From the UHGV virus genome UHGV-0067929: 41,007 bases of DNA. One strand, 5' to 3'. Numbering within the stretch: position 1 is the first letter of the stretch; each line of letters opens with the position of its first letter. Below, one piece after another: positions 9,665 through 34,021 of this stretch. A program made the translations under genes and the position numbers. Source of the stretch: a virus. The notes below the pieces were generated by a model. The model made no database searches, had not been told where the DNA came from, and worked only from the letters and a program-made list of their open reading frames with translations.

Positions 9665-9995
9665 ATCAGCAGCAGAGCGCAAAGCCGCTCAGAGAGCCAG
9701 ACAAGCTGCATCTGGTGTGCGTAAGCTGGAGATTGTGCTTGATGCTCAGGAAATTGAAATGCTGGAGCGTAACTGTGCCACGCGTCGCCCAGGGCGTGCG
9801 CCTTACGAATTTGGTGAGTATATAGCGTTACTGATCCGCCAGGATGATGCACGCGTGCGCGGGCGTATAAAATCGATCAGCAGAAAACGTTGCGGTAAGT
9901 GCGGCGAGAGAGTTCCAGTTAATTCATGCCCGTGTAATGGTGACTCGCAATGCTGGGTGACTAAAGGCTGGCATGAAACGAAATTAATAGTGTGA
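9654..9995 (+). CDS. hypothetical protein with C-terminal Cys cluster
   Basis: 113 aa; CGKCGERVPVNSCPCNGDSQC; stop overlaps the GTGACATGTCAC palindrome. Confidence 0.45.
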   Translation: MMAKSAAERKAAQRARQAASGVRKLEIVLDAQEIEMLERNCATRRPGRAPYEFGEYIALLIRQDDARVRGRIKSISRKRCGKCGERVPVNSCPCNGDSQCWVTKGWHETKLIV

Positions 9996-10003
9996 CATGT
10001 CAC
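9992..10003. repeat. 12-bp perfect palindrome GTGACATGTCAC (copy a)
   Basis: Module junction upstream of terminase. Confidence 0.6.
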
Positions 10004-10044
10004 GAGTAGATTATGCATGATGAATTTGATGTGTTTTGAATACT

Positions 10045-10070
10045 GCCGCCAACTATGGCGGCTTTATTTT
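10045..10070 (+). terminator. intrinsic terminator upstream of terminase operon
   Basis: GCCGCC-AACTAT-GGCGGC then TTTATTTT. Confidence 0.6.
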
Positions 10071-10080
10071 GCATGGTACT

Positions 10081-10097
10081 ATTACCACAACGGTAAC
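10081..10097. promoter_or_regulatory. operator-like palindrome ATTACCACAACGGTAAC upstream of terminase
   Basis: Same motif family. Confidence 0.5.
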
Positions 10098-10098
10098 T

Positions 10099-10115
10099 AT
10101 TACCACGGTGGTTAT
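10099..10115. promoter_or_regulatory. operator-like site ATTACCACGGTGGTTAT overlapping terminase small subunit start
   Basis: Left arm perfect, right arm degenerate. Confidence 0.4.
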
Positions 10116-10710
10116 GATGCCTGCTGAACCTAAAACCTATAAACGCAAATCAACGCAATTTAAGCCACTAACAGCAATGCAGGAGGCTTATTGCCAGTCA
10201 TACATCAAAACGCCTGAAAACCAGACTCAGGCAGCGATTAACGCAGGATTCTCTCCAAATACAGCGGCAGTTAAAGCCAGTGTCATGATGCGCGATGAAC
10301 GCATTCAAAAACGGATTGCCGAGCTGATGGAAGAGCGCAACAAGCGCCTGCGCGTCAGTGCTGATTATGTCCTGCTGCGCCTGGTGGAAATCGACCAGAT
10401 GGACGTGATTGATATCCTCAACGACGATGGGAGCCTTAAGCCAATCCGTGAGTGGCCGAAAATCTGGCGCACTACGCTTAGCGGCTTTGATCTGTCATCG
10501 ACCATCATGAACATGAACGAGGATTCGATAGAGACAATCCTCAAAAAAATTAAATGGCCTGACAAGGTGAAGAACCTCGAACTGATTGGTAAGCACGTCG
10601 ACGTCAACGCATTCAAAGAACGCCTGGATGTTAATGTGAATGTGACAATTGCTGATCGCATAGCGGCAGCCAGGAAGAGACTGAAAGAACGTCAGGATGG
10701 CAATCAGTGA
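10114..10710 (+). CDS. terminase small subunit
   Basis: Start at ATG 10114; AYCQSYIKTPENQTQAAINAGFSPNTAAVKASVMMR typical of Terminase_2-type small subunits; directly upstream of large subunit. Confidence 0.8.
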   Translation: MMPAEPKTYKRKSTQFKPLTAMQEAYCQSYIKTPENQTQAAINAGFSPNTAAVKASVMMRDERIQKRIAELMEERNKRLRVSADYVLLRLVEIDQMDVIDILNDDGSLKPIREWPKIWRTTLSGFDLSSTIMNMNEDSIETILKKIKWPDKVKNLELIGKHVDVNAFKERLDVNVNVTIADRIAAARKRLKERQDGNQ

Positions 10711-12182
10711 CAGATACAGCGTTATCTCCTGAAGAGCAGTTAATCGAGGATATTGCAGGGTTCACTCACGATCCGCTTGGCTATGCCCTCTATGCGTTCC
10801 CGTGGGGGGAAGAGGGGACTGAACTGGCACATGCTACCGGCCCACGTCAATGGCAGGCTGATGCGTTCCGAGAGATACGTGATCACCTGCAGAATCCAGA
10901 GACGCGCTATCAGCCGCTTATGCTGGCACGCGCTTCTGGTCACGGTATTGGTAAATCCGCATTCATCTCAATGCTGATCAACTGGGGCATGTCCACTTGC
11001 GAGGATTGTAAGGTCGTGGTGACCGCCAACACCGACAACCAGCTACGAACGAAGACCTGGCCGGAAATTATCAAGTGGTCGAACCTTGCTATCACGAAAG
11101 ACTGGTTTACCTGTACTGCTACCGCGATGTACAGCAATGACCCAGGGCACGACAAGCGGTGGCGGGCTGACGCAATACCCTGGTCTGAGCACAACACTGA
11201 GGCATTCGCCGGACTACACAACGAGCGCAAACGCATCATCGTGGTATTCGATGAAGCGTCGAACATTGCGGATCTGGTGTGGGAAGTTGCCGAGGGTGCG
11301 CTAACGGACGAAGACACTGAGATTATCTGGGTGGCGTTCGGAAACCCGACGCGTAATACCGGACGTTTCCGCGAATGTTTCCGCAAATATAAACACCGCT
11401 GGAAAACTGCGCAGATTGACAGCCGGACGGTGGAAGGCACTAACAAACAGCAGTTGCAGAAATGGGTTGATGACTACGGGGAAGACAGCGACTTCGTTAA
11501 AATCCGTGTGCGCGGCATATTCCCGGATGCATCTGAATTGCAGTTTATCCCTACCGGACTTACTGACGAGGCAATGAAACGGGTGGTCACCGCTGCGCAG
11601 GTTGCACATGCTCCGGTGATAATTGGCGTTGACCCGGCATACTCAGGCGTTGATGACGCGGTGATATACCTGCGGCAGGGGCTGCACAGTAAGGTGCTAT
11701 GGACTGGTAACAAGACCACCGACGATCTGATTATGGCGAAGCGTATCGCTGACTTTGAAGACCAGTACCAGGCTGACGCGGTGTTCATCGACTTCGGTTA
11801 CGGTACCGGTCTGAAGTCAATCGGTGACGGTTGGGGGCGTACATGGCAACTTGTTCCGTTCGGTGGCGCGTCTACTGACCCGCAGATGCTCAACAAGCGT
11901 GGGGAGATGTTCAATTCATGCAAGACATGGCTGAGGCTCGGCGGCATGCTGGATGACCAGGAAACTGCAGACGACCTGTCGGCGGCAGAGTACAAAGTTC
12001 GCGTGGACGGTAAAATCGTTATCGAACCGAAGGAAGATATCAAGGAGCGGCTTGGGCGTTCGCCGGGTAAAGGCGATGCGCTACTGCTGACGTTTGCTTT
12101 CCCTGTGTCGAAGCGTCTGCGAATTACCGGGCAGCAGAACCAGCAAGGCAAGGCCATCACAGATTACGATCCCTATGCTTAA
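10707..12182 (+). CDS. terminase large subunit
   Basis: 491 aa; ATPase motifs (ASGHGIGKS, IIVVFDEAS) followed by nuclease-domain Asp cluster (IGVDPAYSGVDD); GTG start overlapping small-subunit stop. Confidence 0.9.
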   Translation: MTDTALSPEEQLIEDIAGFTHDPLGYALYAFPWGEEGTELAHATGPRQWQADAFREIRDHLQNPETRYQPLMLARASGHGIGKSAFISMLINWGMSTCEDCKVVVTANTDNQLRTKTWPEIIKWSNLAITKDWFTCTATAMYSNDPGHDKRWRADAIPWSEHNTEAFAGLHNERKRIIVVFDEASNIADLVWEVAEGALTDEDTEIIWVAFGNPTRNTGRFRECFRKYKHRWKTAQIDSRTVEGTNKQQLQKWVDDYGEDSDFVKIRVRGIFPDASELQFIPTGLTDEAMKRVVTAAQVAHAPVIIGVDPAYSGVDDAVIYLRQGLHSKVLWTGNKTTDDLIMAKRIADFEDQYQADAVFIDFGYGTGLKSIGDGWGRTWQLVPFGGASTDPQMLNKRGEMFNSCKTWLRLGGMLDDQETADDLSAAEYKVRVDGKIVIEPKEDIKERLGRSPGKGDALLLTFAFPVSKRLRITGQQNQQGKAITDYDPYA

Positions 12183-12208
12183 TCCGCTGGTGGGGATAAT
12201 GTCGTTGA

Positions 12209-12257
12209 TATCCTCTGATGAGGATAAAACAAAGCCAGCTCATCGGCTGGCTGTTTG
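12209..12257. terminator. bidirectional terminator region between terminase and moron gene
   Basis: Hairpins TATCCTC/GAGGATA and GCCAGC/GCTGGC separated by AAAACAAA, T-tract on each strand. Confidence 0.5.
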
Positions 12258-12268
12258 TGACATGTCAC
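12257..12268. repeat. 12-bp perfect palindrome GTGACATGTCAC (copy b)
   Basis: Junction after terminase, next to terminator hairpin. Confidence 0.6.
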
Positions 12269-12272
12269 GGTG

Positions 12273-12692
12273 TTATTTAATGGCATTAAATCCAGCGTTG
12301 ATGGCTTCCGCAATATTGATGGCACTTGTTTTATCGAAGTGCCCATTCTGAATAAGCGCCGCATGCAGGCATTGTAACTTCATGTTGTATAAGTGTTCGC
12401 TCATGTAATCATTATCACTTTTTGCTTTAGCGTAAACAGCGCGAGAAATATCAAACACATCGCCTTTTTCCATTTCAGAACGTTGTGCTGTTATCCAGTC
12501 ATGGAACGTAACGCTAGTACCATGGTCTTCGCTAAGAGTTAACCCGGCCAGTCCCTCACTCTGAATTACTTCGTAATGCATTTCATTATTAGCAAAAACG
12601 CCATAAAAAATGCAGTCTTCAGCCTGAACGATACGAGAATATTTTAATGGCCATTCATTTAGATACTTAGCCAACATATCAATTGTCTTCAT
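12273..12692 (-). CDS. hypothetical protein (moron, opposite strand to late genes)
   Basis: 139-aa ORF with AAGGTGAG SD; lies with a tRNA between terminase and portal. Confidence 0.5.
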   Translation of the reverse strand: MKTIDMLAKYLNEWPLKYSRIVQAEDCIFYGVFANNEMHYEVIQSEGLAGLTLSEDHGTSVTFHDWITAQRSEMEKGDVFDISRAVYAKAKSDNDYMSEHLYNMKLQCLHAALIQNGHFDKTSAINIAEAINAGFNAIK

Positions 12693-12802
12693 GATCTCAC
12701 CTTAAAAAAATGCCCGGCGAACTTGGCGAACTGGAAGCAATGAGTTATGCCTTCCGTGGCTGTACTGGTTTACAGCATGAAGTCATCACAATGGCGTCCT
12801 GC

Positions 12803-12847
12803 TGTAAAAAGGGCGGTGATAGTTCTTCAAGGGAAACCATCACCGCC
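12803..12847 (-). terminator. terminator downstream of tRNA-Arg
   Basis: 9-bp stem GGCGGTGAT/ATCACCGCC followed on minus strand by CTTTTTAC. Confidence 0.5.
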
Positions 12848-12890
12848 AAGCACCTGGAACTTCTGGCATCACGGTCCTTAGGCGTGATTC

Positions 12891-12967
12891 TGGCGTGGCA
12901 TGCAGGATTCGAACCTGCGACCAACTGCTTAGAAGGCGGTTGCTCTGTCCAACTGAGCTAATGCCAC
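12891..12967 (-). tRNA. tRNA-Arg (anticodon UCU), phage-borne argU-like
   Basis: 77-nt cloverleaf read by hand: 7-bp acceptor stem GTGGCAT/ATGCCAC, D-arm TAGCTCAGTTGGACAGAGC, anticodon loop CTTCTAA, T-arm GCAGGTTCGAATCCTGC, CCA end; one C-A mismatch in anticodon stem. Confidence 0.8.
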
Positions 12968-13288
12968 AACGCTGAGAGCACTTAGCCTGTTAAGGCGCCA
13001 CACTTTGTCGCGGCTCCATAAATGCTCTCATCGTTGTACCCTCGTCTCTTCCGAGGCGTCACACCGAATCGCCGGGATGGTGAATCCCCGTGCGCGGAAT
13101 AAAACCGCTCGACTTGCACATTCCGGCTACCTGGTTCGTTTGCCCGAGCAAGGGAGGGTGCCCCTTAAACGTATCCAGACCGCTATCGTCGCATGTGCCA
13201 TACGCCGTACTGCTCAAAATAAAAGCTCACTCCACCTGTTCAATTTAACGACAAGCCAGTCAGGTTAGTAACCGGAATGAGCTCTTTA

Positions 13289-13305
13289 GTTACCCGAAAG
13301 GTAAT
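13289..13305. promoter_or_regulatory. operator-like palindrome GTTACCCGAAAGGTAAT upstream of portal operon
   Basis: Same motif family. Confidence 0.5.
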
Positions 13306-13394
13306 AATTCACGCGTTAAATGTCAACCTTCTACGATAAATAAATCATATGTGGTTAAATTGGTAATAATTTAATTGCGTACGGAGTCATTGAT

Positions 13395-13601
13395 ATGTGC
13401 ATGGGTAGCTCACCATCAGTGCCTGCAACACCAGAAGTTCAGGCAGCACCACAGGAGCAGGATGCCGCCGTTGTTGATGCCCGCGACGAAGAAACACGTC
13501 GCCGTCGCGCTGCTGCTGGTCGTAGTTCTACGCTGCTTACCGGTTCTCAGGGCGACACATCAACCGCTAATACCAGCGGTAAAACGCTGCTTGGTCAGTA
13601 A
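13395..13601 (+). CDS. small hypothetical protein upstream of portal
   Basis: 68-aa ORF, GGAG 9 nt upstream; low-complexity Ala/Arg/Thr-rich. Confidence 0.3.
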   Translation: MCMGSSPSVPATPEVQAAPQEQDAAVVDARDEETRRRRAAAGRSSTLLTGSQGDTSTANTSGKTLLGQ

Positions 13602-13615
13602 CCGGAGTCATTGAA

Positions 13616-15295
13616 ATGGCGGAAACAACTAAAGAGCGATTGAACAAACAGTTCGCACAACTTGAAAGCGAGCGTCAGTCGTTTGAGCCGCACTGGCGCG
13701 AGTTGAGTGATTACATCAACCCGCGTGGTTCCCGCTTTCTGACTTCTGAGGTCAACCGTAACGATCGACGCAATACACGCATTATTGATTCGACCGGGAC
13801 TATGGCGGCGCGCACTCTCGCCAGCGGCATGATGTCAGGCATCACAAGCCCCGCGCGTCCGTGGTTTCGCCTGGCTACGCCAGATCCTGAAATGATGGAT
13901 TATGGCCCTGTTAAGTTGTGGCTTGAGGCGGTGCAGAACCGCATGAACGATATGTTCAATAAGTCGAATCTCTATCAGTCGCTGCCGCAGTTATACGGAA
14001 GCCTCGGCACATACAGCACTGGTGCAATGGCGGTGCTGGAGGATGACGAGGACATCATTCGCACAATGCCATTCCCGATAGGCAGTTACTACCTGGCTAA
14101 CTCACCTCGTGGCAGTGTGGACACCTGTTTTCGCAAGTTCTCTATGACTGTTCGTCAGCTTGTTCAGGAGTTCGGGCTAAATAACGTCAGCGAATCCGTA
14201 AAAAGCATGTGGGAAAGCGGCACCTACGAGAAGTGGATTGAAGTGATGCATTCGGTTTACCCGAACATTGACCGCGATACATCGAAGCTGGATAGCAAGA
14301 ACAAGCCATTCAAATCGGTTTATTACGAGGTTGGTGGCGATAACGACAAGTTGTTGCGTGAGTCCGGATTCGATGAGTTTCCAATTATGGCTCCGCGCTG
14401 GGAAGTTAACGGCGAAGATGTTTATGGATCATCATGCCCGGGTATGCTGGCGCTTGGACCTGTTAAGGCATTGCAGCTTCTCCAGAAGCGCAAGTCGCAG
14501 TTGATTGATAAAGCCACCAATCCGCCGATGGTTGCTCCGACTTCCCTCAAGAATCAGCGCGCCTCCCTTCTTCCTGGCGACATCACGTATATCGATCAGA
14601 TTACTGGTCAGGATGGCTTCAGGCCTGCTTATCTGGTTAACCCCAGTACAGCAGATTTGGTGGCAGACATTCAGGACACTCGTCAAATCATTAACAGCGC
14701 CTACTTTGTCGATCTGTTCATGATGTTGCAGAACATCAATACCCGCTCTATGCCTGTTGAAGCGGTGATCGAAATGAAAGAAGAAAAACTTCTGATGTTG
14801 GGGCCGGTTCTGGAGCGTCTGAACGACGAATGTCTTAATCCTCTCATTGACCGCGCTTTCTCGATGATGGTGCGTAAAAACATGCTGCCGCCACCGCCTG
14901 ACGCGATGGAAGGCATGCCCCTGAAGGTCGAATACATTTCCGTCATGGCTCAGGCGCAGAAGTCTATCGGCCTGTCCAGTCTGGCGTCCACGGTTAACTT
15001 CATTGGTCAACTTGCGCAAGCGAAACCAGAAGCTCTCGACAAACTCAACGTTGATCAGGCGATCGATGCATTCGCTGATATGTCTGGAGTGTCTCCAACT
15101 GTCATTGTTCCGCAGGAACAGGTTGAGCAGGCTCGCCAGCAACGGGCACAGCAGCAACAGCAGCAACAAATGATGGCGATGGGGATGGCGGCGGCACAGG
15201 GTGCCAAGACGCTAAGCGAAGCTAAAACTTCGGATCCGAGTGTTTTGTCAGCTATGGCGAATGCAGTTAGTGGTCAGGGTGGGCAATCACAATGA
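13616..15295 (+). CDS. portal protein (T7 gp8-like head-to-tail connector)
   Basis: 559 aa; position after terminase; C-terminal QQQQQQMMAMGMAAAQG tail resembles the T7 gp8 C-terminus as recalled. Confidence 0.8.
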   Translation: MAETTKERLNKQFAQLESERQSFEPHWRELSDYINPRGSRFLTSEVNRNDRRNTRIIDSTGTMAARTLASGMMSGITSPARPWFRLATPDPEMMDYGPVKLWLEAVQNRMNDMFNKSNLYQSLPQLYGSLGTYSTGAMAVLEDDEDIIRTMPFPIGSYYLANSPRGSVDTCFRKFSMTVRQLVQEFGLNNVSESVKSMWESGTYEKWIEVMHSVYPNIDRDTSKLDSKNKPFKSVYYEVGGDNDKLLRESGFDEFPIMAPRWEVNGEDVYGSSCPGMLALGPVKALQLLQKRKSQLIDKATNPPMVAPTSLKNQRASLLPGDITYIDQITGQDGFRPAYLVNPSTADLVADIQDTRQIINSAYFVDLFMMLQNINTRSMPVEAVIEMKEEKLLMLGPVLERLNDECLNPLIDRAFSMMVRKNMLPPPPDAMEGMPLKVEYISVMAQAQKSIGLSSLASTVNFIGQLAQAKPEALDKLNVDQAIDAFADMSGVSPTVIVPQEQVEQARQQRAQQQQQQQMMAMGMAAAQGAKTLSEAKTSDPSVLSAMANAVSGQGGQSQ

Positions 15296-15588
15296 CAGAT
15301 TACGAAGACGATCAACTGAAAGAAGAAAACGCCCGTAAGCAACGTGACATGGCGCAGCGTGAAATTGATGACATTCGCTTTGTCATGAGCAGTGAACAGG
15401 GGCGTCGCGTTGTCTGGTCGGTGCTGGAGAAAGGCCGTGTGTTTTCCGCTATCTCACCGATGGACGCTATGGCAATGGCATTTAATGAGGGGCAACGCAA
15501 TCTGGCGCTGGAACTGTTTCAGCGCGTTATGGCGCATTGCCCTGAACAGTATTTGAAGATGGCCAAAGAGGCCAGTGAACAGGAGTGA
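15292..15588 (+). CDS. hypothetical head-assembly protein
   Basis: 98 aa, ATGA-coupled to portal gene. Confidence 0.5.
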   Translation: MTDYEDDQLKEENARKQRDMAQREIDDIRFVMSSEQGRRVVWSVLEKGRVFSAISPMDAMAMAFNEGQRNLALELFQRVMAHCPEQYLKMAKEASEQE

Positions 15589-15590
15589 TC

Positions 15591-16286
15591 ATGAATTTAT
15601 TTGAGCGTTTGCTGTATCGCCGTCTTTGCAATGAGCAACCAGTCGATGGTGGAGCAGCTCCGGCTGCGTCAGAACCGTCAGCGCCTGCAGGTGATAACCC
15701 TGCTCCAGTTGGTGATCCATCACAACAGGAAGGTGATAAGCCACAACCTGTTGCTGATGGCGATAAACCTGCTGATGACAAAAAGCCTGAAAACGATAAG
15801 CAGGATGAAAAAAAGGACGGCGATAAACCAGAGGGGGCGCCTGAGAAGTACGAGTTTCAGGCTGCCGAAGGCGTAGAGCTGGATACAGAAGCGTTGAAGG
15901 AATTCGAGCCGGTGGCGCGAGAACTTAACCTGACCAACGAACAAGCGCAAAAGCTGGTTGATGCTTATCCGAAGATTCTGGCAGGTGTTCAGCAGCGCCA
16001 GGCAGAAGCCTGGCAGAAAACAACCGAGCAGTGGGCTGCGGATGTAAAAGCTGACAAAGAAATCGGTGGCGACAAGTTGATTTCTAACCTTAGCGCCGCA
16101 CAGCGTGCGCTTGACCAGTTCGGGACACCCGAGCTCAAAGAATATCTGAACACCACCGGACTGGGTAATCACCCTGATCTGGTCAAAACGTTCGTGAAAA
16201 TCGGAAAGGCGATGTCTGAAGATGGCATGGTCACCGGTGGTAATGAAGGCCAGCGTAGTGCGGCCGAAGTGCTCTATGGCAAATAA
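15591..16286 (+). CDS. putative scaffolding protein
   Basis: Acidic, Pro/Ala/Lys-rich low-complexity N-half and helical C-half; located between portal and capsid; ATG 5 nt after AGGAG. Confidence 0.55.
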   Translation: MNLFERLLYRRLCNEQPVDGGAAPAASEPSAPAGDNPAPVGDPSQQEGDKPQPVADGDKPADDKKPENDKQDEKKDGDKPEGAPEKYEFQAAEGVELDTEALKEFEPVARELNLTNEQAQKLVDAYPKILAGVQQRQAEAWQKTTEQWAADVKADKEIGGDKLISNLSAAQRALDQFGTPELKEYLNTTGLGNHPDLVKTFVKIGKAMSEDGMVTGGNEGQRSAAEVLYGK

Positions 16287-16300
16287 GAGAGGAAATGACA

Positions 16301-17287
16301 ATGGCTGTTAAAGGCTTAACTGCGCTAACGCTGGCTGACTGGGGTAAGCGCGTCGATCCAAACGGGAAAGTCGATAAGATTATCGAGCTTCTCGGTCAAA
16401 CTAACCCGATCCTTCAGGATATGCCTTTTGTCGAAGGGAACCTTCCTACCGGACACCGAACCACCATTCGTTCTGGTTTACCTTCAGCTACCTGGCGTTT
16501 GCTGAACTATGGCGTACAGCCAAGCAAATCAACCACAGTGCAGGTAACCGATTCCGTTGGCATGCTGGAAACCTATGCTGAAGTCGATAAGTCACTGGCT
16601 GATCTGAACGGCAATACCGCTGAATTCCGCCTGTCTGAAGACCGCGCATTTATTGAAGCGATGAATCAGCAGATGGCGCAGACGCTGTTTTATGGTGATT
16701 CCAGCGTTAACCCTCAGCAGTTTATGGGACTGTCCTCCCGCTATTCCAGCCTGTCTGCGGGTAATGCTCAGAACATCATTGATGCTGGTGGCACGGGTAC
16801 AGATAACACCTCAATCTGGTTAGTGGTGTGGGGCGAAAACACCGTGCATGGCATCTTCCCGAAAGGGCAGAAGGCTGGCATCCAGATGGAAGATAAAGGC
16901 CAGGTGACACTGGAAGATGCTAATGGCGGCAAGTACGAAGGTTATCGCACCCATTACAAATGGGACAACGGACTTGCTCTGCGTGACTGGCGTTATGTTG
17001 TTCGCATTGCAAACATCGATGTCAGCAATCTTTCAGAACCTTCCTCTGCCGCAAATATTGCGAAGTTGATGGTTAAAGCACTGCATCGCATTCCAAACCG
17101 TGGCATGGGGCGCCCGGTGTTCTACATGAACCGCACTGTAGGCCAGGCTCTTGATTTGCAGTCTCTGGAGAAAACATCTCTGGCGATTAGCGTAAAAGAG
17201 ACTGAAGGCGAGTGGTGGACGTCATTCCGTGGTGTACCAATCCGTGAAACTGATGCGCTTCTGGAAACAGAAGCCCGCGTGGTGTAA
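16301..17287 (+). CDS. major capsid protein
   Basis: ~328 aa, position after scaffold, followed by a strong intrinsic terminator further downstream; start chosen at ATG 16301 (8 nt after AAGAGAGG). Confidence 0.7.
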   Translation: MAVKGLTALTLADWGKRVDPNGKVDKIIELLGQTNPILQDMPFVEGNLPTGHRTTIRSGLPSATWRLLNYGVQPSKSTTVQVTDSVGMLETYAEVDKSLADLNGNTAEFRLSEDRAFIEAMNQQMAQTLFYGDSSVNPQQFMGLSSRYSSLSAGNAQNIIDAGGTGTDNTSIWLVVWGENTVHGIFPKGQKAGIQMEDKGQVTLEDANGGKYEGYRTHYKWDNGLALRDWRYVVRIANIDVSNLSEPSSAANIAKLMVKALHRIPNRGMGRPVFYMNRTVGQALDLQSLEKTSLAISVKETEGEWWTSFRGVPIRETDALLETEARVV

Positions 17288-29373: not shown

Positions 29374-29382
29374 GGAACAACA

Positions 29383-29796
29383 ATGAAGGAATTATTGCTG
29401 TTATCGGTATTTTTGATATCCGCTTGCTCGACATCCTATGATGTTTATGACGGTGTTGATAAGGCATATTGCGACAAAGTTAAAATGGATTTTTCTCTTG
29501 CCAAGACGGCGAAGGATAGTTGTATTGATCACTACGTCAAGACTTATACCAAGCCAGCATCATCGGCATCTGATATTGCTGAAGGTGCTGTGTTTGAGTG
29601 TAACAAGGTGATATCCATCGCAGCGAGTTCTTCATACGATGCTGCTGTATGTGCAATGGCTGAAAGAAACGGCATGTCAGTGCAAAAAGTTAATAGCATG
29701 ATAAACAGTAATGACGAAGCCAAAATAAGAACTGATATCAGCTCGGTGAAAAAAGATGCCATGAACAGAGTTGTAAAATATCAGTCATCTTTATAA
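29383..29796 (+). CDS. lipoprotein (moron; candidate superinfection-exclusion factor)
   Basis: Signal peptide with lipobox LISAC; low GC compared with flanks; five further Cys in mature part. Confidence 0.6.
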   Translation: MKELLLLSVFLISACSTSYDVYDGVDKAYCDKVKMDFSLAKTAKDSCIDHYVKTYTKPASSASDIAEGAVFECNKVISIAASSSYDAAVCAMAERNGMSVQKVNSMINSNDEAKIRTDISSVKKDAMNRVVKYQSSL

Positions 29797-29799
29797 GTC

Positions 29800-29811
29800 G
29801 TGACATGTCAC
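29800..29811. repeat. 12-bp perfect palindrome GTGACATGTCAC (copy c)
   Basis: Junction between lipoprotein gene and Bro island, next to terminator hairpin. Confidence 0.6.
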
Positions 29812-29812
29812 A

Positions 29813-29835
29813 GGCCGCAAAAGCGGCCTTGTTTT
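29813..29835 (+). terminator. intrinsic terminator after lipoprotein gene
   Basis: GGCCGC-AAAA-GCGGCC then TTGTTTT. Confidence 0.6.
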
Positions 29836-29853
29836 AACGAATGCCACCGCCCG

Positions 29854-30540
29854 TCAGAAGAACCCTGCTTTGTCGTTGATGTACTCCGCGTGCGTCTGGA
29901 TATCACGCAGGCATTTGTTCACACCGACGATGTAGCAGAACATGGTGGTCAACTCCGCCGCCGCGCCCGATACGTCGTGCCCGTCGTCCTGTAACTGGTT
30001 CAGCAGATTCATCAGCAGTGAGTTCTCCGTCAGGCCGAGAACACCAGACGGCGAGTGAATCAGGCTGCGGTAGCCGGGCTTCAGTGGGGCGCTGTAGGTT
30101 TTGTTCTCTATCTTCATTGCCTGCATCACTGCTGATGCTGTGGCGTTGGCTACTTGGTCGGCAACCATCTTTATGCGTTCTTCCTGCGGGAGCGAGTTTT
30201 TAATGTAACTTCCGGTGCGGCGGATCTGAGGAAGAACCTCACCTGTAACCCATTTACGAAAGCGGTATGGGATAGTGCCTGGTGTCACCGCATCGCGGCA
30301 GCGGAGGATCAGTGTGTAGAGGCCTGACTCGTTGATAATATTGGTTTCGCCTTGACGGCCTAAGTTAAATTTAGCCCTTTCATCATCATCAAGAGATTTT
30401 ATTGACATAGTGGGGTTTGTCAGTTGAAGAGCTTTAATAACGTCTTTGGCAACAAACCAAGGATTTCCATCAATAACAATGGCTCGAATGGTTGCTTCTG
30501 ATTCAAAATGAAAAACAGATGGGGTTACGTTAGCAGTCAT
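29854..30540 (-). CDS. Bro-N domain antirepressor-like protein, paralogue 1
   Basis: Start set to ATG 30540 by alignment with paralogues (MTANVTPSVFHFE...IRAIVIDGNPWFVAKDV Bro-N signature); constant C-terminal module shared with 31767-32459 and 33543-34238. Confidence 0.75.
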   Translation of the reverse strand: MTANVTPSVFHFESEATIRAIVIDGNPWFVAKDVIKALQLTNPTMSIKSLDDDERAKFNLGRQGETNIINESGLYTLILRCRDAVTPGTIPYRFRKWVTGEVLPQIRRTGSYIKNSLPQEERIKMVADQVANATASAVMQAMKIENKTYSAPLKPGYRSLIHSPSGVLGLTENSLLMNLLNQLQDDGHDVSGAAAELTTMFCYIVGVNKCLRDIQTHAEYINDKAGFF

Positions 30541-30770
30541 AGTGATCACCTTTGTAGTTAGGTTAATCACCACTACCGACGCCAATCGGTTGGTGGTGAA
30601 CTGTGCAGGGTTGGCGTAACCGGCTACAAAGGACCCGGCGCACCTTTCGGTGCCCCCACACAGCCCACCATAGAATAGGTGCGCTTTACACATAAAAAAA
30701 CCGCTTATGCGGCATATGTGCCTCTGTAGTAATCCGGGACGCCAATCCCGGCACTGGATTTTGCCAGTGC
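30541..30770 (-). ncRNA. structured leader RNA of Bro paralogue 1 (candidate c4-like regulatory RNA)
   Basis: Reverse-complement copy of the same leader; elements at 30721-30729 (mimic), 30624-30632 (anti-SD), 30549-30557 (SD). Confidence 0.45.
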
Positions 30771-30805
30771 CCGATTACTATGGCACAAGAGGAGTGCGAT
30801 GTAAA

Positions 30806-30822
30806 TTTACCGCAAGGGTAAT
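30806..30822. promoter_or_regulatory. operator-like palindrome TTTACCGCAAGGGTAAT at Bro paralogue 1 leader promoter
   Basis: Abuts -35 TTTACA (minus strand). Confidence 0.5.
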
Positions 30823-30968
30823 AATAGACACAGGTGGATATTAAAATCAACCATATTTGGTTAAGGTGTATAAAAGAGCCACCAGCGAGAAATTGTACCG
30901 CGATGTAAAATAACGAGCATCTGCTGGCTTACAACCAGCGATGTTTCAAATTTGTCACTACTATCAAC

Positions 30969-31367
30969 GTGCCATTCCACGGCGCAGAACTTTATGTTGT
31001 CAATCACAACGGAGAACCGTACACCCCAATGAAACCTATCGTTGAGGGAATGGGTATGGATTGGGCTGCTCAATTTGTTAAATTAAAACAGAGATTTGTC
31101 AAAGGTATTTCGGAAATCGAAATACCTTCTGCTGGCGGTAAACAGTTAATGATATGCCTTGCCTTTCGTAAGTTTGCGGCTTGGCTTTCAAGCATTCAGC
31201 CAAACAAAGTCCGTCCTGAAATCCGCGACAAGGTAATCCAGTATCAGGAAGAGTGTGACGATGTGCTCTACGAGTACTGGACTAAAGGCCATGTGGTTAA
31301 CCCACGCAAAGCTAAAAAGGCGTTGCCGGGTAAAATAACCACTGAACAGCAGGAGGTTTACACTTAA
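30969..31367 (+). CDS. phage antirepressor-like domain protein (Ant N-terminal-type), possibly 5'-truncated
   Basis: FHGAELYVVNHNGEPYTPMKPIVEGMGMDW...RKFAAWL...QEECDDVLYEYW; only a GTG start with no SD, no in-frame ATG upstream. Confidence 0.4.
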   Translation: MPFHGAELYVVNHNGEPYTPMKPIVEGMGMDWAAQFVKLKQRFVKGISEIEIPSAGGKQLMICLAFRKFAAWLSSIQPNKVRPEIRDKVIQYQEECDDVLYEYWTKGHVVNPRKAKKALPGKITTEQQEVYT

Positions 31368-31391
31368 CACTTGATTACATTAACACAAAAT

Positions 31392-31408
31392 ATTACCTTA
31401 AAGGTAAT
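31392..31408. promoter_or_regulatory. operator-like palindrome ATTACCTTAAAGGTAAT
   Basis: Perfect arms. Confidence 0.55.
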
Positions 31409-31484
31409 ATCTTGCTTTCAGGTGATCAAGCGTTAAACGCAATCAACCAAATACGGTTGATTTTAATGTTTCTTCGCGCTTATC

Positions 31485-31501
31485 ATTACCTTTACGGTAA
31501 A
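31485..31501. promoter_or_regulatory. operator-like palindrome ATTACCTTTACGGTAAA at Bro paralogue 2 leader promoter
   Basis: Abuts -35 TTTACA at 31502-31507. Confidence 0.55.
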
Positions 31502-31530
31502 TTTACATCGCACTCCTCTTGTGCCATAGT
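31502..31530 (+). promoter_or_regulatory. sigma70-like promoter of Bro paralogue 2 leader
   Basis: TTTACA - 17 nt - (TGc)CATAGT extended -10. Confidence 0.45.
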
Positions 31531-31536
31531 AATCGG

Positions 31537-31766
31537 GCACTGGCAAAATCCAGTGCCGGGATTGGCGTCCCGGATTACTACAGAGGCACATATGCCGCAT
31601 AAGCGGTTTTTTTATGTGTAAAGCGCACCTATTCTATGGTGGGCTGTGTGGGGGCACCGAAAGGTGCGCCGGGTCCTTTGTAGCCGGTAAGACCAACTCT
31701 GCACAGTTCACCACCATCTGATTGGTCTCAGCGGTGGTGATTAACCTAACTACAAAGGTGATCGCC
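31537..31766 (+). ncRNA. structured leader RNA of Bro paralogue 2 (candidate c4-like regulatory RNA)
   Basis: From predicted TSS: two GC hairpins (31536-31573), SD mimic CTACAGAGG (31578-31586), hairpin+U7 (31594-31613), GAAA-capped hairpin (31654-31667), anti-SD CCTTTGTAG in a loop (31675-31683), 8-bp hairpin (31708-31740), SD CTACAAAGG (31750-31758). Confidence 0.45.
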
Positions 31767-32459
31767 ATGAATACCAAACCTTCCATCTTTTCCTTTGAGT
31801 CATCCTGCCAGATCCGTATGTTCATGATTGACGGAGAACCTTGGTTTGTCACCAAAGATGTGTGCAATGCTTTGAATATTGATGTTACACAAGCGAGAAA
31901 ACTTGATAAAAAAGGCTGGAACAAAAAGGGGCTGTATTCAATACAGACCCCTGGTGGAATACAAGAACTATCCATAGTTTCAGAATCAGGTCTCTACATC
32001 CTTATTCTGCGTTGCAAAGAGGCAATGACTGAGGGAACGAGAGCATTCAGATTTCTTGAATGGGTTACAGGTGAGGTTCTTCCTCAGATCCGCCGCACCG
32101 GAAGTTACATTAAAAACTCGCTCCCGCAGGAAGAACGCATAAAGATGGTTGCCGACCAAGTAGCCAACGCCACAGCATCAGCAGTGATGCAGGCAATGAA
32201 GATAGAGAACAAAACCTACAGCGCCCCACTGAAGCCCGGCTACCGCAGCCTGATTCACTCGCCGTCTGGTGTTCTCGGCCTGACGGAGAACTCACTGCTG
32301 ATGAATCTGCTGAACCAGTTACAGGACGACGGGCACGACGTATCGGGCGCGGCGGCGGAGCTGACCACCATGTTCTGTTACATCGTCGGTGTGAGCAAGT
32401 GCCTGCGTGATATCCAGACCCACGCGGAGTACATCAACGACAAGGCAGGGTTCTTCTGA
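31767..32459 (+). CDS. Bro-N domain antirepressor-like protein, paralogue 2
   Basis: MNTKPSIFSFESSCQIRMFMIDGEPWFVTKDV Bro-N signature; SD CTACAAAGG 9 nt upstream; C-terminal ~145 aa near-identical to paralogues. Confidence 0.75.
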   Translation: MNTKPSIFSFESSCQIRMFMIDGEPWFVTKDVCNALNIDVTQARKLDKKGWNKKGLYSIQTPGGIQELSIVSESGLYILILRCKEAMTEGTRAFRFLEWVTGEVLPQIRRTGSYIKNSLPQEERIKMVADQVANATASAVMQAMKIENKTYSAPLKPGYRSLIHSPSGVLGLTENSLLMNLLNQLQDDGHDVSGAAAELTTMFCYIVGVSKCLRDIQTHAEYINDKAGFF

Positions 32460-32495
32460 CGGCGGCGGCACAGGGATGTGCCTTTAAATAATCCT
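32063..32495 (+). repeat. ~0.43-kb repeat R2 (3' half of Bro paralogue 2), inverted relative to R1/R3
   Basis: Reverse complement of 33543-33960 region with few mismatches. Confidence 0.8.
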
Positions 32496-32529
32496 GTACG
32501 ATTGCAGACCGGGGGGTGAATAGAGTACT

Positions 32530-32546
32530 ATTACCTTACGGGTGAT
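32530..32546. promoter_or_regulatory. operator-like site ATTACCTTACGGGTGAT
   Basis: Upstream of leader peptide/membrane protein unit. Confidence 0.45.
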
Positions 32547-32582
32547 CCATAGCGATTAGGCACCGATACAGGAGGAGCCCAC

Positions 32583-32615
32583 ATGAGAAAATTTGACGAG
32601 TACGAAGGCGTTTAA
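32583..32615 (+). CDS. candidate 10-codon leader peptide (MRKFDEYEGV)
   Basis: ATG 5 nt after GGAGGAG, stop 18 nt before an 8-bp GC hairpin with U-tract. Confidence 0.3.
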   Translation: MRKFDEYEGV

Positions 32616-32633
32616 CATTCGGATAGTTTAATG

Positions 32634-32657
32634 ACGGGGCCATCAGGCCCCGTTTTC
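32634..32657 (+). terminator. attenuator-like hairpin between leader peptide and membrane protein gene
   Basis: ACGGGGCC-ATCA-GGCCCCGT then TTTTC. Confidence 0.5.
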
Positions 32658-32674
32658 ATGTCTGGAGACAGTTT

Positions 32675-33214
32675 GTGTTAAGTGAAGAAATGCAATTTGC
32701 CATGGCTGTGGCTCAAATCGTAAGTGCAGTCGCGGTTTCGCTTGGCTTGTTCATAGCTATCGCTACTATTATTTATAATGTAAATACAGCGAGAAAAGTA
32801 CACACTTCAGTATTCCTTGGTGAAAGCAGGTTTGATGTAGATTATAAGAAAGGCCTATCTACTATGCGCCGCATTCACGAGTCGAACAAATCATTCCGCT
32901 CTTATATGTATCCAAGCAATGGGCAGGCTGATCTTACGGATGAAGAAAAGATAGAGAAGAGAGAAATAATTTACTGTCTAGGTTTCTACGAACGCATGGC
33001 TGTGAGCGTGAAGCGGAAAACTTATGATGAGACCATGATTAAGGAAGTATTTTACAGCTCCGTTGTAAATAACTATCAGATTGCGCTACCTCTTATACAA
33101 GCTATTAGAGAAAAAGAAAACATAAACACATATTTTAAAGAATATGAATGGTTGGCCACACGATGGAAGGATTGTCCATTGAAGGATAAATCCCCGTGGT
33201 ACAAGTTTTGGTAA
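32675..33214 (+). CDS. membrane-anchored protein of unknown function (AT-rich moron)
   Basis: N-terminal hydrophobic helix (AMAVAQIVSAVAVSLGLFIAIATIIY) then ~140-aa soluble domain; markedly AT-rich coding region; followed by terminator. Confidence 0.6.
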   Translation: MLSEEMQFAMAVAQIVSAVAVSLGLFIAIATIIYNVNTARKVHTSVFLGESRFDVDYKKGLSTMRRIHESNKSFRSYMYPSNGQADLTDEEKIEKREIIYCLGFYERMAVSVKRKTYDETMIKEVFYSSVVNNYQIALPLIQAIREKENINTYFKEYEWLATRWKDCPLKDKSPWYKFW

Positions 33215-33236
33215 GCCCGCAGCGCGGGCTTTTTTG
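33215..33236 (+). terminator. intrinsic terminator after membrane protein gene
   Basis: GCCCGC..GCGGGC then TTTTTTG. Confidence 0.6.
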
Positions 33237-33307
33237 TGGATGAAACAAAAGTCAGTGCTACACTCATTGACGCCACATTGAGATGGCTTATAGATGGAAA
33301 TCTCACA

Positions 33308-33469
33308 ATGAAAAAAGCATTTGCTGCACTGTTCGTTTTGTTGTCTCTGGTGGCTTCAACTCAGGCCTCTGCTGGTCGTTGTCAGCACGACAGCGACACT
33401 GCTGCTGACGGCTCCCGCTGCGGCGGGCGTTCTGCGGATTCCCGCCCGGGTGGCGGTGGCATTCGTTAA
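33308..33469 (+). CDS. small secreted Cys-containing peptide (53-aa precursor)
   Basis: Canonical signal peptide MKKAFAALFVLLSLVASTQASA with AxA site; promoter-like TTGACG-N16-TATAGA upstream. Confidence 0.45.
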   Translation: MKKAFAALFVLLSLVASTQASAGRCQHDSDTAADGSRCGGRSADSRPGGGGIR

Positions 33470-33491
33470 AAACAAGGCCGCGAAAGCGGCC
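33468..33491 (-). terminator. terminator downstream of Bro paralogue 3
   Basis: GGCCGC-GAAA-GCGGCC followed on minus strand by TTGTTTTT. Confidence 0.5.
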
Positions 33492-34021
33492 TGTGACATG
33501 TCACGATAGTTCCGTTTTGCACATCCCTGTGCCGCCGTTCTGTCAGAAGAACCCTGCCTTGTCGTTGATGTACTCCGCGTGGGTCTGGATATCACGCAGG
33601 CACTTGCTCACACCGACGATGTAACAGAACATGGTGGTCAGCTCCGCCGCCGCGCCCGATACGTCGTGCCCGTCGTCCTGTAACTGGTTCAGCAGATTCA
33701 TCAGCAGTGAGTTCTCCGTCAGGCCGAGAACACCAGACGGCGAGTGAATCAGGCTGCGGTAGCCGGGCTTCAGTGGGGCGCTGTAGGTTTTGTTCTCTAT
33801 CTTCATTGCCTGCATCACTGCTGATGCTGTGGCGTTGGCTACTTGGTCGGCAACCATCTTTATGCGTTCTTCCTGCGGGAGCGAGTTTTTAATGTAACTT
33901 CCGGTGCGGCGGATCTGAGGAAGAACCTCACCTGTAACCCATTTACGAAAGCGGTAGGGGATAGTTCCTGGTGTCACAGCATCGCGGCAGCGGAGGATCA
34001 GTGTGTAGAGGCCTGACTCGG
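33492..34021 (-). repeat. ~0.5-kb repeat R3 (3' half and 3' UTR of Bro paralogue 3)
   Basis: Direct repeat of R1, 3.7 kb apart. Confidence 0.8.
33493..33504. repeat. 12-bp perfect palindrome GTGACATGTCAC (copy d)
   Basis: Other flank of the Bro island core, next to terminator hairpin. Confidence 0.6.

What the first reader, a model, noticed from the sequence alone, without database searches (positions are those of the whole stretch)
9992..33504. A 12-bp perfect palindrome GTGACATGTCAC occurs four times, each at a module junction
Copies at 9992, 12257, 29800 and 33493 bracket the terminase module (first two) and the core of the Bro/moron island (last two). Three of them abut GC-rich terminator hairpins. 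Four exact copies of a 12-mer in 41 kb is far above chance. Candidate roles: recombination hotspot at module boundaries, binding site for a regulator, or a site related to DNA packaging. It is not a CRP site (spacer 4 rather than 6).
Basis: seen in the sequence. Interest (0 to 1): 0.5.

Follow-up and report, generated by a model that had tools for sequence, protein, structure and literature searches.

The report
Phage regulator's binding site, repeated
The four-fold 12-base palindrome is real and is most likely the DNA docking site of a small, uncharacterised phage protein whose gene ends inside one of the copies; this gene-plus-site pair recurs across many unrelated phages.

Summary
In detail: GTGACATGTCAC occurs exactly four times, against 0.01 expected. 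The window is an epsilon15/phiV10-like (Uetakevirus) prophage. The palindrome is invariant at the same three places in E. coli, Salmonella and Enterobacter relatives, although the flanks and neighbouring hairpins have diverged. The fourth copy belongs to a 38-nt inverted duplicate.

- **Link to a gene.** Copy 1 overlaps the stop codon of a 112-aa gene (epsilon15 gp49 / N15 gp46 family, no Pfam family, not an HNH endonuclease).
- **Generality.** In loci chosen by protein similarity alone, 81 of 127 distinct homologues end inside a GTGAC-NN-GT(C/A)AC site. The central bases differ by lineage, and N15, ZF40 and K233 each hold three copies.
- **Protein fold.** A confident model has a ribbon-helix-helix DNA-binding fold plus a zinc ribbon weakly resembling TraR.

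Best reading: these are operators of this phage protein. In this genus they sit directly beside intrinsic terminators at ends of transcription units, three of them between converging genes. A boundary or roadblock role there is inferred, not shown. The half-sites equal those of matS (MatP), but the spacing is wrong and no homology was detected. I found no description in the searchable literature. This is a new variant of a known kind, of moderate interest.

The parts
9992..10003 (.). Palindrome copy A. It overlaps the TGA stop codon (9993-9995) of the gp49-like gene and lies 41 nt upstream of a terminator and about 80 nt upstream of two repressor operators in front of terS.
   Evidence: The orthologous copy is present in epsilon15, Tyrion, SPC32H and TL-2011b, and with 1 mismatch in phiV10.
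12257..12268 (.). Palindrome copy B, between terL (+) and a converging accessory gene (-). It lies 4 nt from a hairpin whose T-run is on the minus strand.
   Evidence: It is conserved in phiV10, epsilon15, Tyrion and SPC32H while the hairpin sequence changes. The accessory gene to its right varies.
29800..29811 (.). Palindrome copy C. It lies 3 nt after the last gene of the virion operon and directly (0 nt) before a plus-strand terminator, with a converging Bro/Ant gene beyond.
33493..33504 (.). Palindrome copy D, the inverted duplicate of the copy C unit. It lies 38 nt after the stop of the second Bro/Ant gene (-) and directly before a minus-strand terminator.
   Evidence: inverted repeat I7
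9657..9995 (+). Candidate binder: a 112-aa protein of the epsilon15 gp49 / N15 gp46 family (phrog_536). It has a ribbon-helix-helix N-terminal half and a Cys-rich zinc ribbon in the C-terminal half.
10045..10070 (+). Intrinsic-terminator-like hairpin plus T-run at the end of the early-right operon.
12223..12252 (-). Terminator-like hairpin plus T-run for the minus-strand accessory gene. On the plus strand the same hairpin is followed by GTTTG and then the palindrome.
29812..29837 (+). Terminator-like hairpin plus T-run ending the virion operon.
33467..33492 (-). Terminator-like hairpin plus T-run, the inverted copy of the previous one.
10081..10115 (.). Two repressor-type operators (ATTACC-N5-GGTAAT class) in front of terS. 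They form a separate regulatory system and are not part of the palindrome family.
10117..12182 (+). terS-terL unit bracketed by copies A and B. The terS start is taken from the TL-2011b RefSeq annotation; the longest ORF starts at 10036.
12273..12692 (-). Accessory gene (phrog_4846) that converges on terL and ends 4 nt from copy B.
29854..30693 (-). Bro-N/Ant-type gene converging on the virion operon at copy C.
33543..34238 (-). Second Bro-N/Ant-type gene, which ends 38 nt from copy D.

Best explanation
GTGACATGTCAC is the operator of a phage-encoded ribbon-helix-helix protein, the 112-aa product of 9657-9995 (epsilon15 gp49 / N15 gp46 family). A dimer of this protein would bind each two-fold-symmetric site, GTGAC-N2-GTCAC. 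Gene and site travel together, because one site always lies at the 3' end of the gene, usually containing its TGA stop.

In Uetakeviruses the sites lie at ends of transcription units:
- the end of the early-right operon (A);
- the terL / accessory-gene junction (B);
- the end of the virion operon (C);
- the end of an Ant cassette (D).

Each site lies upstream of an intrinsic terminator in the direction of the transcript that terminator ends: directly upstream (0-4 nt) for B, C and D, and 41 nt upstream for A.

Inferred working model, not shown: the bound protein acts on passing RNA polymerase at these boundaries. The most likely form is a roadblock. A polymerase coming from the opposite side would meet the hairpin first, with no T-run, and then the protein. 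The one-directional terminator would thereby insulate in both directions and protect converging units from antisense read-through during lytic growth. The C-terminal zinc ribbon, weakly TraR-like, may contact RNA polymerase.

Shown here: the sites, their conservation, their linkage to the gene family, the lineage-specific centres, the protein fold, and the adjacency to terminators. Inferred: binding itself, and every functional consequence.
For: 1. **Enrichment.** 4 copies against 0.01 expected.
2. **Conservation.** The 12-mer is invariant at three orthologous positions in epsilon15, Tyrion and SPC32H. phiV10 has two exact copies plus one with 1 mismatch, and TL-2011b has two. The flanks and the adjacent hairpin stems differ.
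3. **Linkage to the gene family.**
   - A 14-mer scan of IMG/VR returned 120 loci. 46 carry a gp49-like ORF, nearly always ending in the palindrome, even at 46-55% protein identity.
   - In loci chosen by protein similarity only, 86 of 127 distinct proteins have GT[GT]AC-NN-GT[CA]AC within -25..+45 of the stop. 81 have it at exactly -3. The chance expectation is 0.00027 per locus.
4. **Lineage-specific centres.** The centres seen are AT, CG, CCGG-type, AG, AC, TG, and GG with a GTAAC half-site. Copies within one genome mostly share a centre: N15 3x TG/CA, ZF40 3x AT, K233 2x AC plus 1x CG. Each genome holds 3 copies against about 0.04 expected. N15 and phiV10 both infect E. coli yet use different centres, which argues for a phage-encoded reader.
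6. **Zinc ribbon.** It aligns with TraR at hhalign probability 51%, P 1.6e-4, and hmmsearch E 0.25.
7. **Anatomy.** All four copies are followed by hairpin plus T-run in the direction of transcription. Three of the window's four convergent gene junctions, as judged from the ORF list, carry a copy.
8. **RNA reading is weak.** The RNA mini-hairpin scores only -1.2 kcal/mol, no better than shuffles, and the asymmetric variants would break it.
Against: - No binding data exist. The assignment rests on co-occurrence and fold.
- The site lies at the 3' end of the gene, not at its promoter, which is unusual for an autoregulated RHH repressor.
- Terminator adjacency does not hold outside Uetakeviruses. 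In ZF40 two copies lie in coding DNA (inside gp08 and inside the cII-like gene), and in N15 one copy lies inside repA.
- About a third of homologues have no site at the stop. The P2-like group instead has arrays 0.5-4.5 kb downstream.
- The beta-strand sequence does not map one-to-one onto the central dinucleotide.
- A roadblock at copy B would also stop terS-terL transcripts. That is tolerable only if the portal operon has its own promoter. A repressor operator at 13289 suggests one, but this is not shown.
Confidence: 0.6

Rival explanations
1. Same binder, different job. The protein would be a Q-like late-gene regulator, and copy A would be its loading or activator site at the head of the late genes. 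Copies B-D would be secondary sites. The protein would be loaded onto RNA polymerase, or would activate a promoter, so that the polymerase passes the terminator 41 nt downstream and enters terS.
For: - The gene is the last early gene directly before the late genes in Uetakeviruses and in several distant lineages, where holin, endolysin, spanin and then terminase follow (L290 ORFs).
- No Q homologue is annotated in epsilon15 or phiV10.
- A weak promoter-like match uses the palindrome's GTGACA as its -35 element, and a terminator follows.
- In some relatives a clearer TTGAC(T/G)-N17 promoter-like sequence lies 6-7 nt downstream of the palindrome (L007, L008).
- The possible TraR-like module would suit contact with RNA polymerase.
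Against: - N15 and ZF40 carry the family and also a separate Q-like antiterminator, and there the gene is not next to the late genes.
- Copies B, C and D have no gene to activate in either direction; a terminator or antisense coding follows on each side.
- terS has its own repressor operators, which implies direct repressor control.
- There is no similarity to any Q family in Pfam.
- The promoter match is at chance level (3 found, 3.9 expected).
Confidence: 0.13
2. A host protein reads the site. Candidates are MatP, whose matS site has the same GTGAC/GTCAC half-sites, or another nucleoid or division factor. The phage would use it to position or organise its DNA.
For: - The half-sites are identical to matS, GTGACRNYGTCAC (PMC6907758, read).
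- Enterobacterial hosts have MatP.
- The same 12-mer forms tandem arrays in unrelated bacterial genomes, so other proteins can use it.
Against: - The spacer is 2 rather than 3, and there is no canonical matS in the window.
- The site co-occurs with the phage gene also in high-GC contigs from unidentified hosts. From my own knowledge, MatP is confined to enterobacteria and their relatives.
- Phages of one host (N15 and phiV10, both E. coli) use different centres, each consistent within its genome.
Confidence: 0.07
3. No dedicated binder exists. The palindrome plus hairpin would be a conserved junction sequence that persists because recombination between mosaic phages happens there, or because it travels with accessory-gene cassettes as their 3' end.
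For: - Synteny breaks sit at the palindrome. Five different right flanks were seen at copy B, and many different left flanks at copy C.
- The palindrome-hairpin unit occurs in both orientations, in the window and between window and TL-2011b.
- The unit is found in phages whose structural proteins are only 24-27% identical (L041, L060, L084, L118).
Against: - Twelve bases are too short for efficient homologous exchange.
- It does not explain the copy in the stop codon of one particular gene family across eight or more lineages, the lineage-specific centres, or the copies inside coding DNA in ZF40 and N15.
- The hairpins next to the palindrome diverge while the palindrome does not. A passive junction sequence would not be expected to behave this way.
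Confidence: 0.07
4. A packaging signal. The sites would be pac or cos accessory sites read by the small terminase, or by this protein acting as a packaging specificity factor.
For: - Copies A and B bracket terS-terL.
- In Vibrio phage K233 a copy lies 19 nt before the terS start.
- In P2-like contigs an array of two or three sites lies between the presumed cos region and the end of the portal gene.
Against: - Copies C and D are 17-21 kb from the terminase genes.
- N15 (cos at the genome ends) and ZF40 have no copy near the terminase genes or cos.
- Three or four initiation sites per genome would be unusual for headful packaging.
Confidence: 0.06
5. An RNA element. The conserved 12 nt just 5' of the terminator would act in the transcript, as a seed of a 3'UTR-derived small RNA, a processing site or a protein-binding hairpin.
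For: All four copies are transcribed immediately before a terminator hairpin and U-run, which is the anatomy of Hfq-type 3'-end RNAs.
Against: - The hairpin is only -1.2 kcal/mol, with a z-score of about 0.
- The asymmetric variants (GTGACGGGTAAC) cannot form it.
- Copies occur in both orientations and inside coding DNA in other lineages.
- No Rfam family matches at any copy.
Confidence: 0.04

Closest known systems
Ribbon-helix-helix regulators and their dyad operators (Arc and Mnt of P22, CopG, AmrZ, TraM, ParD/TacA antitoxins)
   Same: The predicted beta-alpha-alpha fold has these proteins as its best structural matches. The site is short and two-fold symmetric, and a genome holds several copies. 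Arc and Mnt likewise belong to phage antirepressor regions.
   Different: - No Pfam RHH model reaches its threshold.
- The protein carries an extra C-terminal zinc ribbon.
- The linked site lies at the stop codon rather than at the promoter of the gene.
- The other copies sit next to terminators rather than promoters.
- Binding is untested.
matS / MatP (Ter macrodomain organiser of E. coli)
   Different: - matS is 13 bp, GTGACRNYGTCAC (PMC6907758); here the spacer is one base shorter, and no canonical matS is present.
- No sequence homology was detected: hhalign probability 0.4%, and Smith-Waterman below the shuffle mean.
- The phage protein lacks MatP's four-helix bundle and coiled coil and has a zinc ribbon instead.
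Q antiterminators with their DNA binding element at the late promoter (lambda, 21, 82)
   Same: A small zinc-containing protein is encoded as the last early gene directly upstream of the late genes. Its presumed DNA site lies just after the gene and a terminator follows shortly downstream.
   Different: - There is no similarity to any Q family.
- N15 and ZF40 have both this protein and a Q homologue.
- Additional copies lie at operon ends, where nothing needs antitermination.
TraR / DksA-type zinc-finger factors that bind the RNA polymerase secondary channel (F TraR, lambda Orf73)
   Same: The C-terminal 60 residues (long helix, CxxC...C ribbon, short helix) align with TraR residues 5-64.
   Different: The signal is weak (hhalign probability 51%, E 0.25). 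The Pfam zf-dskA_traR model does not match, and the second Cys pair is not a clean CxxC. TraR and DksA are not known to be tethered to DNA.
Dispersed centromere-like palindromes of N15 (the sopC-like sites scattered in that genome; from my own knowledge, not checked here)
   Same: A few copies of one palindrome are scattered through a phage genome, including its late region.
   Different: Uetakeviruses integrate and carry no ParA/ParB. N15's three copies of the present motif are distinct from its partition sites.

Membership tests
matS (MatP binding site) | 13-bp consensus GTGACRNYGTCAC | tested here: not met
   All copies are 12 bp with a 2-bp spacer. There are zero matches to the matS consensus in the window. 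The consensus was taken from PMC6907758.
matS (MatP binding site) | Reader is MatP or a MatP homologue | tested here: not met
matS (MatP binding site) | Binding by host MatP | not testable with these tools
   This needs EMSA or ChIP.
Ribbon-helix-helix regulator with dyad operator | Protein has the beta-alpha-alpha RHH fold | tested here: met
Ribbon-helix-helix regulator with dyad operator | Two-fold symmetric site genetically linked to the gene | tested here: met
   81 of 127 distinct homologues end inside GTGAC-NN-GT(C/A)AC. The centres are lineage-specific.
Ribbon-helix-helix regulator with dyad operator | Operator overlaps the promoter of its own operon (autoregulation) | tested here: inconclusive
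   The site is at the 3' end of the gene. In one distant lineage a second copy coincides with the start codon. Only a chance-level promoter match overlaps copy A.
Ribbon-helix-helix regulator with dyad operator | Sequence-specific binding of the protein to the site | not testable with these tools
   No binding assay or complex prediction was available.
Q-type late antitermination module | Homology to a Q family (lambda, 21, 82) | tested here: not met
   No Pfam, NCBIfam or PDB sequence match. N15 and ZF40 encode a separate Q-like protein.
Q-type late antitermination module | Gene directly upstream of the late operon, with promoter, binding element and terminator after it | tested here: inconclusive
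   The position is met in Uetakeviruses and several distant lineages, and a terminator is present. A promoter is not established.
TraR/DksA C4 zinc-finger factors | Match to the zinc-finger family profile and a four-Cys ribbon | tested here: inconclusive
   hhalign probability 51%, P 1.6e-4 over 58 columns. hmmsearch against PDB TraR gives E 0.25. There is no Pfam zf-dskA_traR hit. Three Cys are invariant and the fourth varies in position.
CRP site | TGTGA-N6-TCACA | tested here: not met
   The sequence reads TGTGA-CATG-TCACA at most, so the spacer is 4.
HNH endonuclease next to terminase (HK97-type cos packaging) | HNH domain in the gene upstream of terS | tested here: not met
   No HNH domain in 9654-9995, 9323-9664, 8818-9390 (which is DUF551) or 8388-8837.
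Uetakevirus repressor operators (epsilon15 'repressor' sites) | ATTACC-N5-GGTAAT | tested here: not met
   The motif is different. Those operators are present separately, 21 times in the window.

The most novel reading that the evidence does not exclude
The epsilon15 gp49 / N15 gp46 family would be a widespread class of phage factors that combine a MatP-like reading of GTGAC half-sites (ribbon-helix-helix) with a TraR-like module that engages RNA polymerase. Tethered at a few sites per genome, one always inside its own stop codon, it would act on elongating polymerase at fixed DNA positions. Ordinary one-way terminators would become protein-gated, two-way boundaries of transcription units. An alternative form of the same reading is a phage-made analogue of matS/MatP that organises the phage chromosome.
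Probability: 0.15. Interest if true: 0.7.

Novelty: new variant of a known kind. Interest (0 to 1): 0.5.

Why it matters
If the pairing holds, it assigns a function (sequence-specific DNA binding, with a defined 12-bp target) to a protein family that is annotated only as 'hypothetical' or generically as 'transcriptional regulator'. The family has no Pfam model and occurs in podo-, sipho- and myovirus-type temperate phages of enterobacteria, Vibrio, Aeromonas, Yersinia and high-GC hosts.

It also gives Uetakeviruses (epsilon15, phiV10, SPN1S/SPC32H, some used for detection and biocontrol) a second genome-wide regulatory layer beside the known repressor operators. The new sites lie at the places where mosaic modules and converging transcription units meet.

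The system is small and directly testable: one 112-aa protein, one 12-mer and four junctions. The match with matS half-sites raises the question of whether phage and host read the same DNA word with related folds.

Tried and rejected
- **HNH endonuclease label.** Rejected: no HNH domain in or near the gene.
- **Epsilon15 repressor operator.** Rejected: that motif is different, ATTACC-N5-GGTAAT.
- **Canonical matS and MatP homology.** Rejected on spacing and on sequence tests. Only fold-level similarity remains.
- **RNA structure.** The mini-hairpin is no more stable than shuffles, and no Rfam family matches at the sites.
- **First structure prediction.** A shallow alignment of 78-98% identical sequences gave pLDDT 65 and no fold matches. 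A diverse alignment fixed this. Foldseek against PDB gave nothing below E 0.8.
- **Searches that failed or were uninformative.**
With the close set it returned only near-identical loci.
- **Promoter scans around copy A.** They give chance-level matches only.
- **Literature.** The 12-mer, four variants and a 14-mer form are absent from the searchable literature except as unrelated primers. Papers on SPC32H and epsilon15 do not mention it.
- **Beta-strand against central dinucleotide.** There is no clean one-to-one code.
- **Terminator adjacency outside the genus.** Not general.
Full report
**1.

GTGACATGTCAC occurs at 9992, 12257, 29800 and 33493 and nowhere else. Shuffles that preserve dinucleotide content give 0.01 copies on average, and relaxing to two mismatches adds only one chance-level site.

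Reading the four contexts with the terminator scan gives one common anatomy. In the direction of the local transcript the order is gene stop, palindrome, G+C-rich hairpin, T-run.

| Copy | Position and strand of the terminated transcript | Gap from palindrome to hairpin |
|---|---|---|
| A | plus strand; contains the stop codon of 9657-9995 | 41 nt (hairpin 10045-10062) |
| B | minus strand; 4 nt after the stop of 12273-12692 | 4 nt (hairpin 12252-12233) |
| C | plus strand; 3 nt after the stop of 29383-29796 | 0 nt (hairpin 29812-29829) |
| D | minus strand; 38 nt after the stop of 33543-34238 | 0 nt (hairpin 33492-33475) |

C and D are the two arms of a 38-nt inverted repeat made of palindrome plus hairpin.

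**2. What the window is**

Megablast places it among epsilon15/phiV10-like phages of the genus Uetakevirus, with E. coli relatives at 95-97% identity and Salmonella and Enterobacter relatives at about 80%. I fetched five annotated genomes chosen by overall similarity, not by the palindrome.

The 12-mer is exact at the same three positions (after the gp49-type gene, after terL, after the last virion-operon gene) in epsilon15, Tyrion and SPC32H. phiV10 has two exact copies plus one with a single mismatch at the record junction. TL-2011b has two.

Around the copies the sequence has diverged. The hairpin after terL reads AGCCAGC...GCTGGCT, GCCGCGC...GGCGGGC, AGCCCGCG...CGCGGGCT or CAGCCACC...GGCGGGCA in different phages. 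The gene upstream of copy C differs from phage to phage. An invariant 12-mer inside diverging non-coding DNA points to selection on the 12-mer itself. The published epsilon15 annotation lists repressor, IHF, RNase III and integrase sites but not this motif, and its 'repressor' sites are a different sequence, ATTACC-N5-GGTAAT.

**3. The link to one gene family**

The gene ending in copy A (MAKSAAERK...KLIV, 112 aa) is not an HNH endonuclease. Pfam, NCBIfam and PDB sequence searches find nothing, and PHROGs files it under phrog_536, 'transcriptional regulator'. Only the final G of its last sense codon (GTG) and its TGA stop lie inside the palindrome, so coding constraint cannot explain conservation of the site.

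Two independent searches tie the motif to this family.

- **Search by DNA.** 46 of them carry a homologue, almost always ending in the palindrome, including homologues only 46-55% identical and without Uetakevirus terminase genes nearby.
- **Search by protein only.** I took divergent family members from a profile search of 1.8 billion representatives (180 clusters). I used them to fetch loci without any reference to DNA motifs.
  - Among 127 distinct proteins, 86 have GT[GT]AC-NN-GT[CA]AC within -25..+45 of the stop. 81 have it in exactly the same register (-3). The chance expectation is 0.00027 per locus.
  - The half-sites stay and the centre changes by lineage: GTGACGCGTCAC, GTGACCGGTCAC, GTGACAGGTCAC, GTGACACGTCAC, GTGACGGGTAAC.
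  - In the last lineage a second copy coincides with the start codon of the gene and further copies lie 3.4 and 5.6 kb downstream in the opposite orientation.

Annotated phages of quite different types repeat the pattern:

| Phage | Copies | Locations |
|---|---|---|
| N15 (gene 46) | 3x GTGACTGGTCAC | one over the gene-46 stop codon, one upstream of the antirepressor operon, one inside repA |
| Pectobacterium phage ZF40 | 3x GTGACATGTCAC | one 3 nt after gp22, one in the 3' part of the cII-like gene, one in gp08 |
| Vibrio phage K233 | 3 (2x AC centre, 1x CG centre) | one 19 nt before terS |

Each of these genomes holds three copies where 0.04 are expected. N15 and phiV10 share a host yet use different centres, each consistent within its genome. 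This argues for a phage-encoded reader rather than a host one.

**4. The protein looks like a DNA-binding dimer**

With a shallow alignment the model was poor. With 37 diverse members it reached pLDDT 89.9. The model shows a helix, an extended segment at residues 22-28, two helices, a Cys-rich ribbon and a short helix.

The C-terminal half aligns with the TraR zinc finger. I treat this as a lead only, because Pfam's zf-dskA_traR model does not match.

**5. Relation to matS**

The half-sites are those of the MatP site GTGACRNYGTCAC (PMC6907758), but the spacer is one base shorter and the window has no canonical matS. The family profile does not match E. coli MatP. The resemblance is therefore the same half-site word read by the same fold class. 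It is not membership.

**6. What the copies might do**

This part is inference.

- **Sites at unit ends.** In this genus the copies mark ends of transcription units. Repressor-type operators occur 21 times in the window against 1.3 expected, including in front of terS (10081, 10099) and in front of the portal operon (13289). The virion genes therefore seem to be split into several directly repressed units.
- **Which ends.** Copy A closes the early-right operon, B closes terS-terL against a converging accessory gene and tRNA-Arg, C closes the virion operon against a converging Bro/Ant gene, and D closes another Ant cassette. Three of the four convergent junctions I can see in the ORF list carry a copy.
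- **Roadblock geometry.** At B, C and D the hairpin has a T-run on one side and the palindrome on the other. A protein on the palindrome would meet polymerase arriving from the T-run-less side just as the hairpin emerges. A one-way terminator would then act in both directions. I think this is the most economical role, but nothing here tests it.
- **Q-like alternative.** It is attractive because of gene position: last early gene, with lysis or terminase genes next, also in distant lineages. It fails to explain B-D, and N15 and ZF40 have their own Q.
- **Other alternatives.** A packaging role fits K233 and the P2-like arrays next to cos but not N15, ZF40 or copies C and D. An RNA role is unlikely. 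Terminator adjacency is not seen in N15 or ZF40, so whatever the protein does may differ between phage types.

**7. Module junctions**

In 24 close relatives with enough downstream sequence, 14 have copy B, with nine different flank pairs. The accessory gene to its right changes while the left side (hairpin and terL) stays. At copy C the left flank changes and the right side stays. The C/D unit occurs in both orientations within the window and between window and TL-2011b. The palindrome is thus the last shared sequence before the mosaic break. Whether it promotes exchange, or is simply required at that place, cannot be decided here.

**8. Caveats**

- Loci from the 14-mer scan are biased towards the motif. 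The protein-selected set is not, but its members are not phylogenetically independent. I count about eight lineage-level groups.
- The 14-mer also arises in coding DNA for unrelated reasons, for example ATG CGT GAC ATG TCA CAG at the start of Q21-like genes.
- The frequency of the 12-mer in the E. coli chromosome proper was not measured.
- In some distant bacteria the same 12-mer forms tandem arrays, so it is not exclusive to this phage family.

**9. Verdict**

This is a real, conserved cis element and very probably the operator of an uncharacterised RHH/zinc-ribbon phage protein. The gene-site arrangement is unusual (operator in the stop codon), and in this genus the placement next to terminators at unit boundaries is notable. 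I found no description of it in the searchable literature. It is a new variant of a known kind, of moderate interest, and could be tested quickly at the bench.

Noticed in passing
window 3569-3647, 4343, 4728, 6674, 6736, 10081-10115, 13289, 30806, 31392, 31485, 32530, 34507, 34888: Repressor-type operators ATTACC-N5-GGTAAT, as annotated in epsilon15, occur 21 times with up to 2 mismatches, against 1.3 expected. They include sites in front of terS, the portal operon, the Ant cassettes and the tailspike gene. This suggests direct repressor control of many units rather than a simple early-to-late cascade.
   Followed up: partly
window 30589-30770 (-), 31537-31718 (+), 34286-34471 (-): Three Rfam-significant pairs of isrK plus C4 antisense RNA are present, one in front of each Bro/Ant gene. 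These are P1/P7 immI-type c4-ant cassettes in triplicate: two direct copies (29853-30831 and 33542-34532) and one inverted copy (31481-32462).
   Followed up: partly
window 12891-12967 (-): A tRNA-Arg (anticodon tct) lies on the minus strand between terL and the portal operon, as in SPC32H and the O157 typing phages.
   Followed up: no
L332 6122-6177, L376 1846-1923, L394, L428 4951-5006 (Sorangium); L421 7024-7080; L395 200-247 (Ca. Jettenia): The same 12-mer forms tandem arrays with a 22-bp (Sorangium) or 18-bp (Jettenia) period in unrelated bacterial genomes. There are 29 extra GTGACNNGTCAC in 0.85 Mb of such loci, against 0.8 expected. The neighbouring genes and any reader protein were not identified.
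   Followed up: partly
L326 6625-6905 (beta-proteobacterium MAG): An 82-aa ORF (6649-6897) aligns weakly with the RHH half of the family (5.3 bits in a single comparison). It has the palindrome 24 nt before its start and over its TGA stop, plus GTGACACGTCAC inside. It may be a zinc-ribbon-less relative with the same gene-site arrangement.
   Followed up: partly
L380 828, L387 7314, L398 7440 (Providencia burhodogranariea, three scaffolds): There are three copies of the 14-mer in A+T-rich stretches that look intergenic, in one genome where about 0.03 are expected. No family gene lies within the fetched 8 kb. A host-encoded reader in this species is possible.
   Followed up: no
L255-L284 (P2-like contigs), e.g. 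L256 10860-10935: In P2-like phages the family gene follows the replication gene and has no site at its stop. Instead an array of two or three full or partial sites about 30 bp apart lies between the presumed cos region and the terminator of the portal gene.
   Followed up: partly
L012, L017, L022, L074, L124; L021, L030, L037, L056; L443 (ZF40) 7622: The 12-mer also lies inside coding DNA: at the start of Q21-like antiterminator genes (MRDMSQ) and in the 3' part of cII-like genes. Two diverged cII-like genes (EGRDMSPNK and GCCDMSQRINK) keep the exact 12-mer, and both phages carry the family gene. This hints at selection on the DNA there too.
   Followed up: partly
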